Shown: positions 32,071 through 38,369, counted from the first letter of the stretch. The stretch is DNA of 64,000 nt from an uncultured Ruminococcus sp. (GCA_947345935.1 CAMZZN010000001.1:47049-111048); one strand, 5' to 3'. Made by a program: numbers and translations. Notes: generated by a model not told the origin, from the sequence alone.

Positions 32071-32232
32071 ATTCTGATTCTTTAAATTTCCCTTGAGGGG
32101 ATTTTAAAGAATCAATAATGGGTTTCCAAAGGGTGACTTCCCACAGTGTGGGGAGATGTCACGCAGTGACAGAAGGGACGGGCGCCGGTAAGGCGTGTAC
32201 TTCCCTTTGGCAGGGGGGACAGAGTCCCCTCT
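32071..32232. repeat. Composite palindromic REP/MITE-like element
   Basis: Hairpins: TGATTCTTTAAA/TTTAAAGAATCA; CCAAAGGG/CCCTTTGG enclosing TTCCCAC/GTGGGGA, TGTCAC/GTGACA and GCGCC/GGCGT; then GGGGGAC/GTCCCCT. Confidence 0.65.
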
Positions 32233-34887: not shown

Positions 34888-35541
34888 TCAGATCTCGCTC
34901 CATGCATAGCGGGTGTAGTCCGGAACGTCGCCTATTATCACTGTTTCAGCCAGAAGAAATTCAAATTCTACTTCTGTATCAAAGGAATAAATAGGCAGAG
35001 CAGAGCGTATTTCAGCTTTTACAACGGCAGAAATGCGATGAGTCGTTTGATTGATTCCGGCAGAATCGAAAGTACTTTTCAGCCGGACTGATATTTTTTC
35101 CGCAGGGCATATCTTTATCTTTATATCCGGACCTCTTCCTGCCAGAACGTACGAACCGGTGAGAGAACCGGCAGGAATACGGTGCACTGAATCGGACATA
35201 CGGCTGAATTTTCTGCGTATCAGGAGAGTAAGTTCCGACTGAATACGATTGATATTGACGGGGATTGCTTCAATTGATGCCGGGTGACCGTTTTCGTCAT
35301 AAAGCACGGCGGCAAAATCACTGTATGAGAAATTATTTTCCGCAAGATATTCCGCAACTGATTCCGATATGGCTTCTTCAGCGGTTTTGCGGGCAAAATG
35401 TTCTGCTTGAGCTGCGGCGGCAGGTTTCAGCGCCTTGTCAGTTTTTATGATGCAGATTATCAGCAGAATTATCATTATTATAAAAATTGCAGCTCCGATC
35501 AGAGGTCGGAGCTCTTTTTTTCTGTGCTTTCTTTTTCTCAT
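34888..35541 (-). CDS. yunB: Sporulation protein YunB
   Basis: N-terminal TM, IPAGSLTGS..LAGRGP, FDSAGINQTTHRI, ETVIIGDVP. Confidence 0.85.
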   Translation of the reverse strand: MRKRKHRKKELRPLIGAAIFIIMIILLIICIIKTDKALKPAAAAQAEHFARKTAEEAISESVAEYLAENNFSYSDFAAVLYDENGHPASIEAIPVNINRIQSELTLLIRRKFSRMSDSVHRIPAGSLTGSYVLAGRGPDIKIKICPAEKISVRLKSTFDSAGINQTTHRISAVVKAEIRSALPIYSFDTEVEFEFLLAETVIIGDVPDYTRYAWSEI

Positions 35542-35686
35542 GCAGTTCCCTCCGTTCCTGATTACAATATATTCCGCAGGGGCTTTATTTGTGACAGTAT
35601 TCTATGATTATCTTTCATAATGACCAGAAAAATATATAGATTGTGAAAAAATGAACAAAAGGTTATATATGTTGTAATATTTATCA

Positions 35687-35715
35687 TTGAAATTGATTTT
35701 GTCATACTGTATAAT
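35687..35715 (+). promoter_or_regulatory. Strong sigma-A promoter upstream of the structured element and GH9
   Basis: TTGAAA (35687-92), 17 nt, TATAAT (35710-15). Confidence 0.75.
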
Positions 35716-35719
35716 AAAA

Positions 35720-35940
35720 TTAAGGCAGCACTGCACAAAGATTGTGTGACAGATGTACTCTGCGAGCATAAACTCCGTCAGATTTTTCGTCAGATTGTGC
35801 AGAAATTTCGCAGGCATACTGTCGTATGTCAAGAAATTTATGTGTAAGATGTCGGAAAATATGTAAGCAGATGACGTGCAAAGCCGTCAGGCGTGCTTTG
35901 TGCGGTGTTGCCTTAAGGCGGCATCTGCACTGTTGCTGCC
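35720..35940 (+). ncRNA. Unidentified ~200-nt rod-like structured element (6S-like RNA, regulatory leader or MITE)
   Basis: 21-bp terminal pairing 35720-40/35896-916 (19 WC plus 2 G.U), nested inner stems, and alternative hairpins at 35900-930 and 35917-940. Confidence 0.45.
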
Positions 35941-35996
35941 GAAAAAAATGCCATTTCTGCGTTAAGCGGCAAAGGCGGATATGAGAGGGAAAATTT

Positions 35997-38369
35997 ATGA
36001 AAGTACAGAAAACATTTATCAGAAAATGTCTTGCTGCTGCTGTGTCAGGAGTGATGCTTACATCTGTCTGTGCCGTTAATACAGGCGGCGTTACAGTAAA
36101 TGCAGCGGAAAATCTTATCAGCAATTCTACGTTTGAAAACGGAACTTCAGGCTGGGCTCTCTATAAAGAAAGCGGCGGAGCTGCAACGCTCGGTACTGAA
36201 AACGGACGTCTGGCGGTAAATATTACTTCGCTTGGAACTGTAAATTATGCCGTTCAGCCTAATTTTGATGTAATACCTTTGTACAAGAACGGCGTTTATC
36301 GTCTGAAATTTGATGTGTCATGCACCGTAGACAGATTTATTGAGGGAATGATACAGCAGAACGGCGGAACATATACGGCGTATACATGGAAAGGAATCAA
36401 TCTTACATCCGAGATGCAGACGATAGACTATGAGTTTGTAATGGAATATGATACCGATATTATGACAAAGCTCTGCTTTAACTGCGGCATTCAGGAAGAT
36501 CATGAGGGTCAGCTTCCGCCTCATACTATTTATTTTGATAACGTTTCTCTTGAACTTGTAGACGACAGCAACGTTGATTACAGTGCTGATAAGCCCTATG
36601 AGCCGGATATAGTTACCAATCAGGTAGGATATCGGACAGATGATGTTAAAACGGCTGTATTCCGCAATATTTCAGGATTTGGCACATTTAATGTTGTAAA
36701 TGCCGATACAAAAGAAAATGTCTATACAGGCAAAATGTCGGAAGCAATAAGCTACTCATTGGCTGACGAGACGGATTATACCGGCGATTTTTCAGCTGTT
36801 ACCGAACCGGGAACTTACTATATTACTGCTGACGGAGCTGATGATTCGTATACATTCATCATAGGCGATAACGTTTATAAAGAACTTATTGATGACTCCG
36901 TCCGTATGTTGTATTTACAGAGATGCGGATGCGAAGTTATAGATGATGAATTCGGTCATCCTGCCTGCCATAATACTATGGCTACGATCTATCAGACGGA
37001 CCAGAAAATAGACGTCAGCGGCGGATGGCATGATGCCGGCGATTACGGTCGATATATAGTTCCGGCGGCAAAGGCTGTTGCCGATCTTCTCTATGCATAT
37101 GATGCTGCTCCGGAACTTTACGGTGATGATCTTAACATTCCGGAAAGCGGAAACGGTGTTCCGGACGTTCTTGACGAAGTGCGTTACGAGTTGGAATGGA
37201 TGCTCAAAATGCAGTCGGAAAACGGAGGCGTTTACCACAAAGTAAGCTGCGACACTTTTCCCGGATATGTAATGCCGCAGGCTGAAACCAAGCCTCTTAT
37301 CGTAACTCCCGTTTCTTCAACGGCTACGGCAGACTTCTGTGCATCTATGGCTCTGGCTTATGAATTGTATCTGCCTGTTGATGCGGAATTTGCAGAGGAG
37401 TGTTTCACAGCGGCTGAAAGATCATGGGAATGGCTTGAAAAAAATCCCGGTTTCCTGTTTAAAAATCCTTCCGATATCGTAACGGGAGATTACGGCGATA
37501 AGACTGACAGCGACGAGCGTTACTGGGCGGCCGTTCAGATGTATCGTGCTACAGGAGACGAGAAGTATCTGAATTCTGTTTCTTACGCACTCAGGGGACT
37601 TGATTGGGGTACAGTCGGAGATTACGGAAATATTGCTCTTCTTACAATGAAGGATGTCGATAAGAATTCCGAAGTATATAAAGATGCAAAGGATGCAGTT
37701 ATCAACCAGGCAAATAATTTCAAAGCTGTATCCAACTCTTCACCTTATGGAGTTTCTCTTATGAAATTTGCATGGGGCAGCAATATGACGGTTGCTAATG
37801 CCGGCGTTATCTGCGGTCTTGCATATAGACTTACAGGCGATGAGACATATCTTAAAGCAGCTAATTCAAATCTTGATTATCTGCTTGGATATAATCCGAA
37901 TGCAGTATGTTTTGTAACGGGATATGGCACGGTGTCTCCCGAATATCCTCACCACAGACCTTCAATGGCTGTTGGAAAAGCAATGAAAGGTATGTTGGTA
38001 GGCGGTGTAAACTCTGCGCTTGAAGATCCGGCAGCAAAGGCATATCTTAAGAATGCTCCGGCAGCAAAGTGCTACGTTGATAATTCGGAGAGCTATTCCA
38101 CTAATGAAATCACTATTTACTGGAATTCTCCTCTGACATACCTATTTTCACTTACGGAAAAAAATGAGACTTCTGTTCCGGCAAAGGACGGAGATATTAA
38201 TAATGACGGATATGTAAATATCGCTGATCTGGTTTGTCTTCAGAATTATCTGCTCAAAAGGGAGACTATAACTCCTGAGCAGGCAGCGGCAGCCGACGTA
38301 TGCAGGGATAATGAGATAGACGTATTCGATCTTGTTAAATTAAGACAGATTGTTATTGAAAACAAATAA
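35997..38369 (+). CDS. Cellulosomal GH9 cellulase: signal peptide, CBM4, Ig-like, GH9, dockerin
   Basis: GGWHDAGDYG, PHHRPS, SYSTNEITIYWN; two Ca-binding dockerin repeats (DINNDGYVNIAD, DVCRDNEIDVFD). Confidence 0.93.
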   Translation: MKVQKTFIRKCLAAAVSGVMLTSVCAVNTGGVTVNAAENLISNSTFENGTSGWALYKESGGAATLGTENGRLAVNITSLGTVNYAVQPNFDVIPLYKNGVYRLKFDVSCTVDRFIEGMIQQNGGTYTAYTWKGINLTSEMQTIDYEFVMEYDTDIMTKLCFNCGIQEDHEGQLPPHTIYFDNVSLELVDDSNVDYSADKPYEPDIVTNQVGYRTDDVKTAVFRNISGFGTFNVVNADTKENVYTGKMSEAISYSLADETDYTGDFSAVTEPGTYYITADGADDSYTFIIGDNVYKELIDDSVRMLYLQRCGCEVIDDEFGHPACHNTMATIYQTDQKIDVSGGWHDAGDYGRYIVPAAKAVADLLYAYDAAPELYGDDLNIPESGNGVPDVLDEVRYELEWMLKMQSENGGVYHKVSCDTFPGYVMPQAETKPLIVTPVSSTATADFCASMALAYELYLPVDAEFAEECFTAAERSWEWLEKNPGFLFKNPSDIVTGDYGDKTDSDERYWAAVQMYRATGDEKYLNSVSYALRGLDWGTVGDYGNIALLTMKDVDKNSEVYKDAKDAVINQANNFKAVSNSSPYGVSLMKFAWGSNMTVANAGVICGLAYRLTGDETYLKAANSNLDYLLGYNPNAVCFVTGYGTVSPEYPHHRPSMAVGKAMKGMLVGGVNSALEDPAAKAYLKNAPAAKCYVDNSESYSTNEITIYWNSPLTYLFSLTEKNETSVPAKDGDINNDGYVNIADLVCLQNYLLKRETITPEQAAAADVCRDNEIDVFDLVKLRQIVIENK

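What the first reader, a model, noticed from the sequence alone, without database searches (positions are those of the whole stretch)
35687..35996. ~197-nt rod-like inverted-repeat element starting at the promoter of the GH9 cellulase, with mutually exclusive alternative stems
Seen: the predicted TSS (~35722) falls in the 5' arm of a 21-bp stem (35720-40/35896-916) whose two non-WC pairs are both G.U. Inner stems continue symmetrically: TCTGC/GCAGA, a central bubble, AAATTTC(35803-09)/GAAATTT(35833-39), and GGCATAC-TGTC-GTATGTC. The 3' arm can instead pair with 35917-30, which can in turn pair with 35934-40, giving an attenuator-like layout but with an A run rather than a U run. TTAA flanks both ends, and TTAAGGC(A/G)GCA recurs at 35720 and 35913, with a partial copy at 35962. 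Hypotheses: (a) divergent 6S-like RNA (right size and shape, but I do not see the Firmicutes 6S sequence motifs I recall); (b) a novel processing or regulatory leader for a major cellulase; (c) an IS5-type MITE with TTAA target duplication. The interior also has a perfect Spo0A box (TTCGTCA, 35786-92) and several near matches, next to the divergent yunB.
Basis: partly seen in the sequence, partly recalled or inferred. Interest (0 to 1): 0.72.

Follow-up and report, generated by a model that had tools for sequence, protein, structure and literature searches.

The report
Jumping-element hairpin in cellulase leader
The 197-base hairpin in front of the GH9 cellulase gene is one copy of a small non-coding jumping element (a MITE) that is scattered through Ruminococcus and related gut bacteria, not a 6S RNA or a cellulase-specific switch. 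It is ordinary in kind, but its fold is unusually well preserved on one strand.

Summary
Window 35720-35916 folds into a rod (z = -7). It has a 21-bp basal stem with two G.U pairs, TTAA on both sides, and a promoter-like site just upstream.

It is not locus-specific. The body (35724-35912, 189 nt) is one of 9 full-length and about 25 shorter copies in this genome, all intergenic. The family has a 172-nt consensus and occurs in many Ruminococcus species, Subdoligranulum, Acutalibacter and gut phage contigs. R. callidus ATCC 27760 has about 410 copies.

- **Target duplication:** 50 of 68 unique copies carry an exact 4-bp duplication, mostly TTAA but also TAAA, TTTA, CAAG and CTTA.
- **Partner element:** a 1126-bp IS5-family insertion sequence (321-aa transposase) with the same 15-nt ends and the same 4-bp duplications occurs in gut metagenomes.
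- **6S RNA:** the genome's real 6S RNA lies on another contig, and Rfam gives no hit at this locus.
- **GH9 orthologues:** the nine examined in other species lack the element.

Hypothesis (b) survives only as possible co-option, because the element probably starts the GH9 5'UTR.

Unexpectedly, the rod is kept by compensatory changes and folds far better on one strand in 193 of 194 copies, yet its orientation relative to genes is random. No transcript data could be obtained.

The parts
35687..35715 (+). Promoter-like site TTGAAA-17-TATAAT of the GH9 gene. It belongs to the host flank, not to the element.
   Evidence: 11 of 12 match. Upstream flanks of different copies share no similarity.
35720..35723 (.). 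Left copy of the 4-bp target-site duplication (TTAA). It lies 5-8 nt after the -10 box, at about the predicted transcription start.
35724..35912 (+). Body of the MITE: 189 nt, against a family consensus of 172 nt. It folds into a rod-like hairpin on this strand.
   Evidence: nhmmer E = 9e-55 over model positions 1-172. Fold. Family alignment and covariation.
35724..35740 (+). Left terminal inverted repeat, GGCAGCACTGCACAAAG.
   Evidence: The autonomous IS begins GGCAACACCGCACAA.
35756..35776 (+). 21-nt stretch (TACTCTGCGAGCATAAACTCC) that replaces 4 nt of the consensus. All or part of it is shared with copies C20:33086 and C22:14700, so it marks a subfamily.
   Evidence: Alignment.
35896..35912 (+). 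Right terminal inverted repeat, CTTTGTGCGGTGTTGCC.
35913..35916 (.). Right copy of the target-site duplication (TTAA).
35917..35940 (+). Small hairpin GGCGGCA-N10-TGCTGCC whose two ends resemble the element's ends. It may be a decayed mini-copy. It is the source of the 'alternative stem' with the element's 3' arm.
   Evidence: D6, D7; -11.6 kcal/mol. Mini forms of 35-46 nt exist elsewhere. The identification as a mini-copy is inferred.
35983..35999 (+). Ribosome-binding site GAGAGGG and the ATG of the GH9 cellulase. Both are unpaired in the predicted fold.
35997..38369 (+). GH9 cellulase gene (CBM4_9, CelD_N, Glyco_hydro_9, dockerin). It is the gene whose 5'UTR would carry the element.
34888..35541 (-). 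Divergent yunB gene. The element lies about 180 nt beyond its start and is not part of it.

Best explanation
[quoted passage not shown] It is a non-coding element of 189 nt here and 172 nt in the family consensus. It has 17-nt terminal inverted repeats (GGCAACACCGCACAAAG in the consensus).

**How it got here.**
- It was inserted into a TTAA that lay a few bases downstream of the -10 box of the GH9 promoter.
- The insertion duplicated that TTAA.
- The family is mobilised in trans by an IS5-family DDE transposase. That transposase belongs to a 1126-bp insertion sequence with the same 15-nt ends and the same 4-bp, TTAA-like target duplication.
- The insertion sequence was not found in this assembly, so this copy is probably stranded, and it looks fixed in the species.

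**Shown:**
- Multi-copy family.
- Target duplications.
- Shared ends with an IS5-family element.
- Absence from the nine GH9 orthologues examined.
- No match to any RNA family.

**Inferred:**
- The GH9 mRNA starts at or just before the element, so the rod forms the extreme 5' end of a 275-nt leader.
- There it would most likely act as a passive 5' stem-loop that changes mRNA stability or is cut by RNase III.
- It would not act as a switch.
For: **Copies**
- 9 full-length and about 25 shorter copies in the own genome, all intergenic.
- 17 of 41 related genomes carry the family, all in the same genus.
- Named hosts include R. flavefaciens FD-1, R. callidus ATCC 27760 and Acutalibacter. Subdoligranulum and gut phage contigs also carry it.
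- R. callidus has 439 + 407 end matches, against 14 + 8 for the control pattern.

**Target duplication**
- 50 of 68 unique copies have identical 4-bp flanks, against 18.1 +/- 2.7 in permutations (maximum 28 of 5000).
- 23 of the 34 copies whose left flank is not TTAA also match. These include CAAG, CTTA, TCAA and ATAA.
- One copy is nested inside another with a CTAG duplication (L329).

**Partner element**
- It is 1126-1137 bp with ends GGCAACACCGCACAA. Of 19 examples, 9 have exact 4-bp duplications (TTAG, TTAA, TAAA, TATG).
- Its 321-aa protein scores 319.5 bits on NF033581 (IS5 family; cut-off 140) and carries PF05598 and PF01609.
- A 593-bp deletion derivative sits in R. callidus (L330).

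**Not specific to this locus**
- No element within 1.5 kb of the nine GH9 orthologues examined (60-67% identity).
- The closest species lacks the GH9 gene at this site.

**Recurring position**
- Promoter-like sites reading into the element pile up within 0-19 nt of its ends. There are 26 such sites among 184 copies, a few of them overlapping in one flank, and the count declines with distance.
Against: - No empty site was found. Four conspecific metagenome assemblies carry the identical 455-nt spacer. The shorter Logan contigs break inside the element.
- The partner insertion sequence is absent from this assembly and from the 13 other same-genus genomes searched for its transposase. Many of these look like metagenome bins, which often lose multi-copy elements.
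- Similarity between the MITE and the insertion sequence is limited to the terminal 15 nt, so the MITE is not a simple deletion derivative.
- The strong one-strand bias of the fold is not predicted by plain DDE transposition.
Confidence: 0.88

Rival explanations
1. Co-opted leader. The element is a MITE by origin, but at this locus it has become a working part of GH9 regulation. It could be a 5'-terminal stem-loop that protects the mRNA from 5'-end-dependent decay, or an RNase III site that sets the mRNA level. This adds to the best explanation rather than excluding it.
For: - The insert sits at the predicted start, so the rod would lie within 0-2 nt of the 5' end.
- It lies in the orientation that folds best, -84 kcal/mol.
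- The insertion is identical in four conspecific assemblies.
- The ribosome-binding site stays unpaired.
- In Bacillus cereus, the similar bcr1-3 repeats are often parts of UTRs, and the presence of bcr3 correlates with mRNA decay rate (PMC3446304).
Against: - No transcript or decay data exist for this locus.
- The GH9 orthologues examined do without the element.
- Family copies sit next to genes in both orientations without bias: 19 against 14, and 26 against 39.
- Identity among conspecific contigs may only reflect their closeness.
Confidence: 0.2
2. Dedicated riboswitch- or attenuator-like leader of the cellulase, in which mutually exclusive stems switch expression on cellulose.
For: An alternative 13-bp hairpin (35900-35930, -19.4 kcal/mol) can form and competes with the basal stem.
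Against: - The alternative is about 21 kcal/mol worse than the rod.
- It is followed by an A run, not a U run, and no terminator-like site lies between the element and the start codon.
- No Rfam family matches.
- The sequence is a dispersed repeat found next to unrelated genes.
- It is absent from the GH9 orthologues examined.
Confidence: 0.03
3. A divergent 6S-like RNA that binds RNA polymerase.
For: Its size (about 190 nt) and rod shape with internal loops.
Against: - No hit to RF00013 or RF01685, or to any family at E <= 10.
- The genome's own 6S RNA is at C15:39954-40138, scoring 66.1 bits against a gathering score of 46.4.
- There are dozens to hundreds of copies per genome with target duplications.
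Confidence: 0.01
4. A REP/REPIN-like or IS200/IS605-derived palindromic element moved as single-stranded DNA by a tyrosine (HUH) transposase.
For: - The whole-length hairpin folds much better on one strand, as expected for elements handled as single strands.
- No partner transposase is present in this genome.
Against: - Such elements insert without target duplication, whereas exact 4-bp duplications of variable sequence flank 50 of 68 copies.
- The ends are identical to those of an IS5-family DDE element.
Confidence: 0.03

Closest known systems
bcr1 (and bcr2, bcr3), MITE-like repeats of the Bacillus cereus group
   Same: - Firmicute intergenic repeat of about 155 nt with a short AT-rich target duplication.
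- Variable positions between strains.
- Often transcribed as part of UTRs.
- The secondary structure is kept by compensatory base changes at the RNA level (PMC3184786, PMC3446304).
   Different: - bcr1 has 5-bp duplications and is drawn as a cruciform-like fold with two stem-loops (PMC3184786). The present family has 4-bp TTAA-like duplications and one continuous rod.
- The present family has an identified IS5-family partner with identical ends.
- There is no sequence similarity between the two.
IS5-family insertion sequences (IS5 group) and their MITEs
   Same: - The partner transposase matches NF033581 and carries DUF772 plus DDE_Tnp_1.
- Ends begin with GG, the duplication is 4 bp, and the targets resemble the YTAR preference recalled for IS5 (TTAA, TTAG, CTAA, CTAG). 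The features of IS5 itself are from my own knowledge.
   Different: - Targets also include TAAA, TTTA and TTAT.
- The MITE shares only the terminal 15 nt with the insertion sequence.
- Its interior is a full-length palindrome under structural selection, not a remnant of the transposase gene.
Correia elements (Neisseria), ERIC/IRU (enterobacteria) and RUP (pneumococcus)
   Same: Short palindromic MITEs inserted between promoters and genes and co-transcribed. From my own knowledge, they alter mRNA processing or stability through RNase III or RNase E.
   Different: Those have TA duplications and different partner families. No processing has been shown for the present element.
6S RNA (RF00013)
   Same: Size and overall rod shape only.
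   Different: No model match. The true 6S gene is elsewhere in the genome. The element is multi-copy and mobile.

Membership tests
MITE (non-autonomous DNA transposon) | Short and non-coding | tested here: met
   189 nt here and 172 nt in the consensus. ORFs overlapping the element were not tested for coding; the interior is a near-complete palindrome.
MITE (non-autonomous DNA transposon) | Terminal inverted repeats | tested here: met
   17-nt ends, 21 nt with the TTAA, 90% complementary here. They are conserved in all copies.
MITE (non-autonomous DNA transposon) | Target-site duplication of fixed length | tested here: met
   Exact 4-bp direct repeats in 50 of 68 copies, against 18.1 +/- 2.7 by permutation. 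The same test at 2, 3, 5 and 6 bp gives nothing.
MITE (non-autonomous DNA transposon) | Many copies at non-homologous sites that differ between genomes | tested here: met
   A nested insertion is shown.
MITE (non-autonomous DNA transposon) | An autonomous element with the same ends that encodes a transposase | tested here: met
   A 1126-bp IS5-family element with ends GGCAACACCGCACAA in gut metagenome contigs. It was not found in this genome.
MITE (non-autonomous DNA transposon) | Empty site at this locus in a close relative | tested here: not met
   All conspecific contigs carry the insert. In the closest other species the locus is rearranged and has no GH9 gene. GH9 orthologues elsewhere lack the element, but their leaders cannot be aligned.
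MITE (non-autonomous DNA transposon) | Mobilisation by the partner transposase | not testable with these tools
   This needs a transposition assay.
6S RNA (RF00013 / RF01685) | Match to the covariance model | tested here: not met
   No hit at E <= 10 in 35000-36600. The genome's 6S RNA is at C15:39954-40138.
Transcription attenuator or riboswitch leader | Intrinsic terminator that alternates with an antiterminator | tested here: not met
   No terminator-like site between 35720 and 35996. The hairpin at 35917-35940 is followed by an A run. The alternative stem is 21 kcal/mol worse than the rod.
Transcription attenuator or riboswitch leader | Conservation upstream of orthologous genes | tested here: not met
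   Absent from the nine GH9 orthologues examined.
REP/REPIN or IS200/IS605-derived palindromic elements | Insertion without target duplication, with a linked Y1 transposase | tested here: not met
   4-bp duplications are present and the partner is a DDE transposase.

The most novel reading that the evidence does not exclude
The family is not just DNA junk with inverted ends. Its whole-length rod appears to be selected as a single strand of one polarity.

**Evidence for one-strand selection**
- The + strand folds better than the - strand in 193 of 194 copies.
- In the 60-copy alignment the paired positions hold 449 G.U cells against 28 A.C cells.
- 29 of 65 pairs show compensatory changes.
- Two internal loops are conserved tandem G.A pairs within AGAU motifs.

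**Why it is puzzling**
- Copies face either way relative to genes.
- This would mean that mobilisation by this IS5-family transposase passes through, or needs, a folded single strand (DNA or RNA). Alternatively, the element may make a structured RNA of its own.

**Consequence here**
- Where a copy lies in the sense orientation at a transcription start, as before the GH9 gene, the same fold would govern mRNA fate.
Probability: 0.25. Interest if true: 0.6.

Novelty: new member of a known kind. Interest (0 to 1): 0.33.

Why it matters
- **Annotation.** The result removes a false lead. This is neither a novel cellulase riboswitch nor a 6S-like RNA. It also explains similar 'long hairpin' findings in other Ruminococcus and Oscillospiraceae windows.
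- **A named family.** The report defines a widespread, apparently undescribed MITE family and its IS5-family partner in major fibre-degrading gut and rumen bacteria. With about 410 copies in R. callidus, the family is likely to shape intergenic regions, break short-read assemblies (as the Logan contigs here show), and add leaders to genes.
- **An open question.** The one-strand structural selection is testable and touches on how IS5-type elements, or their passengers, are handled.
- **Cellulase biology.** For the GH9 gene itself, the only open point is whether a 190-nt 5' stem-loop alters expression of a cellulosomal enzyme.

Tried and rejected
- **Rfam (E <= 10):** only chance hits outside or across the element.
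- **Partner transposase next to solitary ends in the own genome:** the neighbouring ORFs looked like ordinary genes from their sequence; no domain search was run on them.
- **PF01609 transposases:** none in 17 same-genus genomes, R. callidus or Ruminococcus sp. JL13D9 is flanked by the element's ends. The partner was reached only through a 593-bp deletion derivative followed by a metagenome scan.
- **A 35-nt match of the partner IS to nine contig ends of the own genome:** this turned out to be a different unassembled repeat with a similar promoter region.
- **Empty site:** sought through exact-protein look-ups and through yunB and GH9 orthologues. None was found, and synteny is broken in the closest species.
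- **Orientation bias relative to genes:** a first, crude open-frame method gave a spurious bias. With a codon-usage model it disappeared.
- **Internal sigma-70 promoter:** looked for by eye in the consensus; nothing convincing.
- **Literature:** no paper holds the end sequence, and none describes a Ruminococcus MITE of this kind.

Full report
**1. The observation**

Window 35715-35996 folds at -108.4 kcal/mol, against -77.4 +/- 4.4 for shuffles (z = -7.0). The rod 35720-35916 alone gives -84.3 kcal/mol.

- The basal stem 35720-40/35896-916 is 21 bp. Its two exceptions are both G.U on the + strand.
- TTAA flanks both ends.
- A promoter-like site, TTGAAA-17-TATAAT, ends at 35715.
- The flanking genes are a GH9 cellulase with CBM4_9, CelD_N and a dockerin, and a divergent yunB.

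**2. It is a dispersed repeat**

A search of the window's own genome (2.73 Mb, 114 contigs) found many copies.

- A profile search gives 9 full-length copies with a 172-nt consensus. The window copy is 189 nt because a 21-nt stretch at 35756-35776 replaces 4 nt of the consensus.
- It also gives about 25 shorter forms of 35-150 nt that keep the same ends.
- All lie between genes.
- Of 41 related genomes, 17 carry the family, and all 17 are in the same genus.
- A public scan with both ends names R. flavefaciens FD-1, R. callidus ATCC 27760, Ruminococcus sp. JL13D9, Acutalibacter caecimuris and many Oscillospiraceae bins.
- Copies at about 72% identity and the same 172-nt length occur in Subdoligranulum variabile records. 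Closer copies occur in human gut phage contigs.
- R. callidus has 439 forward and 407 reverse matches to the 15-nt end, against 14 and 8 for the control pattern. That is about 410 elements in 3.2 Mb.

**3. It is mobile**

- Among 68 unique full-length copies from 14 genomes, 50 have identical 4-bp flanks. Permuting the right flanks gives 18.1 +/- 2.7, with a maximum of 28 in 5000 trials. The same test at 2, 3, 5 or 6 bp gives nothing.
- The duplicated sequences are TTAA (27), TAAA (6), TTTA (5), TTAT (3) and TATA (2). CAAG, CTTA, TCAA, CTAA, ATAA, TTGA and TTAG occur once each.
- The non-palindromic cases show that these are direct duplications, not extensions of the inverted repeat.
- In R. 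callidus one copy sits inside another with a CTAG duplication (L329).
- The window copy has TTAA at 35720-23 and 35913-16.

**4. The partner element**

Transposases of the PF01609 family were checked in same-genus genomes and in two complete genomes. None is flanked by the element's ends.

- A 593-bp stretch in R. callidus, bounded by the same ends, encodes the first 100 residues of a DUF772-type transposase (L330).
- A metagenome scan with that fragment found dozens of full-length copies of 1126-1137 bp. Their left end is GGCAACACCGCACAATTGC, and their right end is GGCAACACCGCA(T/C)A on the other strand. They carry one 321-aa ORF.
- Of 19 examples, 9 have exact 4-bp duplications (TTAG, TTAA, TAAA, TATG, TTTC).
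- The protein scores 319.5 bits on NF033581 (IS5 family transposase; cut-off 140). It carries PF05598 and PF01609.
- The MITE shares only the terminal 15 nt with this insertion sequence.
- The insertion sequence was not found in the window's genome, either by protein or as a broken contig end. Its transposase was not found in the 13 other same-genus genomes searched. Many of these look like metagenome bins, which tend to lose multi-copy elements.
- R. callidus also has a second IS5-family element: 1222 bp, 353 aa, ends GGAAACACTG, duplication TTAG. Matching MITE variants lie next to it.

**5. It is not a cellulase-specific or known RNA element**

- No Rfam family matches the region at E <= 10.
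- The genome's 6S RNA lies at C15:39954-40138, scoring 66.1 bits against a gathering score of 46.4.
- The nine GH9 orthologues examined in other species (60-67% identity), and a paralogue in this genome, have no copy within 1.5 kb.
- In the closest species (YunB 79% identical), yunB lies directly next to the C1-peptidase/dockerin gene that follows GH9 in the window. The GH9 gene itself is missing there. A 46-nt mini form with a TTTA duplication sits 28 nt from the yunB start.
- Four conspecific metagenome assemblies carry the same 455-nt spacer; three are identical and one has a single mismatch. Shorter Logan contigs break inside the element at about 35779 and 35887, as expected for a repeat.
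- The insertion therefore looks fixed, and no empty site was seen.

**6. The 'alternative stems'**

- 35917-35930 (GGCGGCATCTGCAC) resembles the element's own left end (GGCAGCACTGCAC). It is therefore complementary to the right end.
- The resulting hairpin, 35900-35930, is worth -19.4 kcal/mol. Forcing it costs about 21 kcal/mol overall.
- 35917-35940 forms a small hairpin with end-like termini. It may be a decayed mini-copy, but this is inferred.
- An A run follows it, and no terminator-like site lies in the leader.
- The ribosome-binding site is unpaired in the predicted fold.
- TTCGTCA lies in a nearly invariant part of the repeat, so it is not a Spo0A site specific to this locus.

**7. An unexpected property of the family**

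*Covariation (60-copy alignment).*
- 97.3% of cells in 65 pairs form standard pairs.
- 29 pairs show changes on both sides, against 11.4 +/- 1.9 in shuffles and 4-12 when the partners are slid.

*One-strand bias.*
- The fold is much better on one strand. The + strand gives -87.8 against -60.9 kcal/mol and is better in 65 of 66 copies.
- An independent, more diverse set gives -88.2 against -66.0 kcal/mol, with the + strand better in 128 of 128 copies.
- Paired positions hold 449 G.U cells but only 28 A.C cells. Most A.C counts at a given pair are only 1-3 copies.

*Conserved loops.*
- The conserved internal loops are not hidden A.C pairs. They are tandem G.A/A.G pairs within AGAU/AGAU, fully invariant at the first site and nearly so at the second.
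- (C)AGAT therefore occurs five times as a direct repeat on the + strand.

*No orientation bias.*
- Between co-directional genes, the sense to antisense counts are 19 to 14 and 26 to 39 (p = 0.14).

A double-stranded cruciform would treat both strands alike. Selection therefore seems to act on a single strand of the lineages that propagate, but which molecule that is remains unexplained. In the window the element lies in the well-folding orientation relative to GH9.

**8. Position relative to promoters**

Among 184 copies, promoter-like sites reading into the element cluster at its ends. There are 15 sites whose -10 box ends 0-9 nt away and 11 at 10-19 nt, falling to 3 at 50-59 nt. Sites reading away from the element number 3-8 per bin. 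A few sites overlap in the same flank. The GH9 arrangement (promoter, TTAA, element, gene) is therefore a recurring one. It probably reflects the AT-rich target and tolerance of such inserts.

**9. Mechanism and comparison**

- **Origin (shown):** transposition in trans by an IS5-family DDE transposase into a TTAA.
- **Effect here (inferred):** the GH9 mRNA would begin with a 190-nt rod. By analogy with 5' stem-loops in Firmicute mRNAs and with co-transcribed MITEs, this would alter stability or create a double-strand-specific cleavage site. It would not act as a switch.
- **Closest described analogue:** bcr1 of the Bacillus cereus group. It is about 155 bp, has 5-bp duplications, is transcribed, and has compensatory changes that keep an RNA-level structure (PMC3184786). 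The bcr1-3 repeats are frequent in UTRs (PMC3446304).
- **Literature:** no paper in the library holds the end sequence or describes this family.
- **Other notes in this scan:** look-alikes were flagged in 11 other windows, including nested copies with empty-site stages. I treat those notes as leads only.

**Verdict**

This is a new member of a known kind. Interest is modest, raised somewhat by the one-strand structural selection.

Noticed in passing
G000 contig ends (for example C1 end, C9 start, C15 end, C21 start, C96 start, C103 start): About 20 contig ends finish in the same sequence...CCCATATGCGTTTACTTAATAGAAGAAATATGATATAATAAGAAATATGGAAAC... Each of the nine ends printed is preceded by a G-rich stretch running into the CCC. 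This is an unassembled multi-copy element that differs from the MITE's partner. Two further classes of shared contig ends have 7-8 members each.
   Followed up: partly
G000:C15:39954-40138 (+), outside the window: The genome's canonical 6S RNA gene, scoring 66.1 bits on RF00013.
   Followed up: yes
L069:1583-1752 (G014:C87, closest species): Here yunB lies directly next to the C1-peptidase/lectin/dockerin gene, so the GH9 gene of the window (35997-38369) is a presence/absence difference between species. A 46-nt mini form of the repeat with a TTTA duplication sits 28 nt upstream of yunB.
   Followed up: partly
L329, L328 and L330 (R. callidus ATCC 27760, G041:C1 about 3017870-3018217, 3036125-3036459 and 1419810-1420402): Three things in this genome: a nested copy-in-copy insertion with a CTAG duplication, a 335-nt composite form, and a 593-bp end-bounded remnant that encodes the first 100 residues of the partner transposase.
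   Followed up: partly
L295:1005-2226 and L297 (R. callidus): A second IS5-family element: 1222 bp, 353-aa transposase, ends GGAAACACTG..., duplication TTAG. It lies directly beside MITE variants whose ends begin GGAAACACTGCATAAAG. This suggests several matched IS-MITE pairs in one genome.
   Followed up: partly
Family alignment A1, columns 28-31/131-134 and 52-55/109-112 (window about 35751-35754, 35792-35795, 35846-35849 and 35868-35871): Conserved AGAU/AGAU internal loops with tandem G.A pairs (the first invariant, the second nearly so). (C)AGAT occurs five times as a direct repeat on the well-folding strand. It may be a protein-binding motif.
   Followed up: no
G000:C51:2432-4780 (-): A GH9 paralogue, 60% identical to the window's enzyme, has one in-frame TGA. 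It is either a pseudogene or a sequencing error.
   Followed up: no
MT835572.1, MT835489.1 and other 'Bacteriophage sp.' contigs from human faeces; OY725839.1 and other Subdoligranulum variabile records: Copies of the same 172-nt family occur in putative gut phage contigs and in another genus, with TAAG and TTTA duplications.
   Followed up: partly
window 32071-32232: Another first-stage note describes a nested palindromic repeat here. The profile of the present family gave no listed match there at E <= 10, so it appears to be a different repeat.
   Followed up: no
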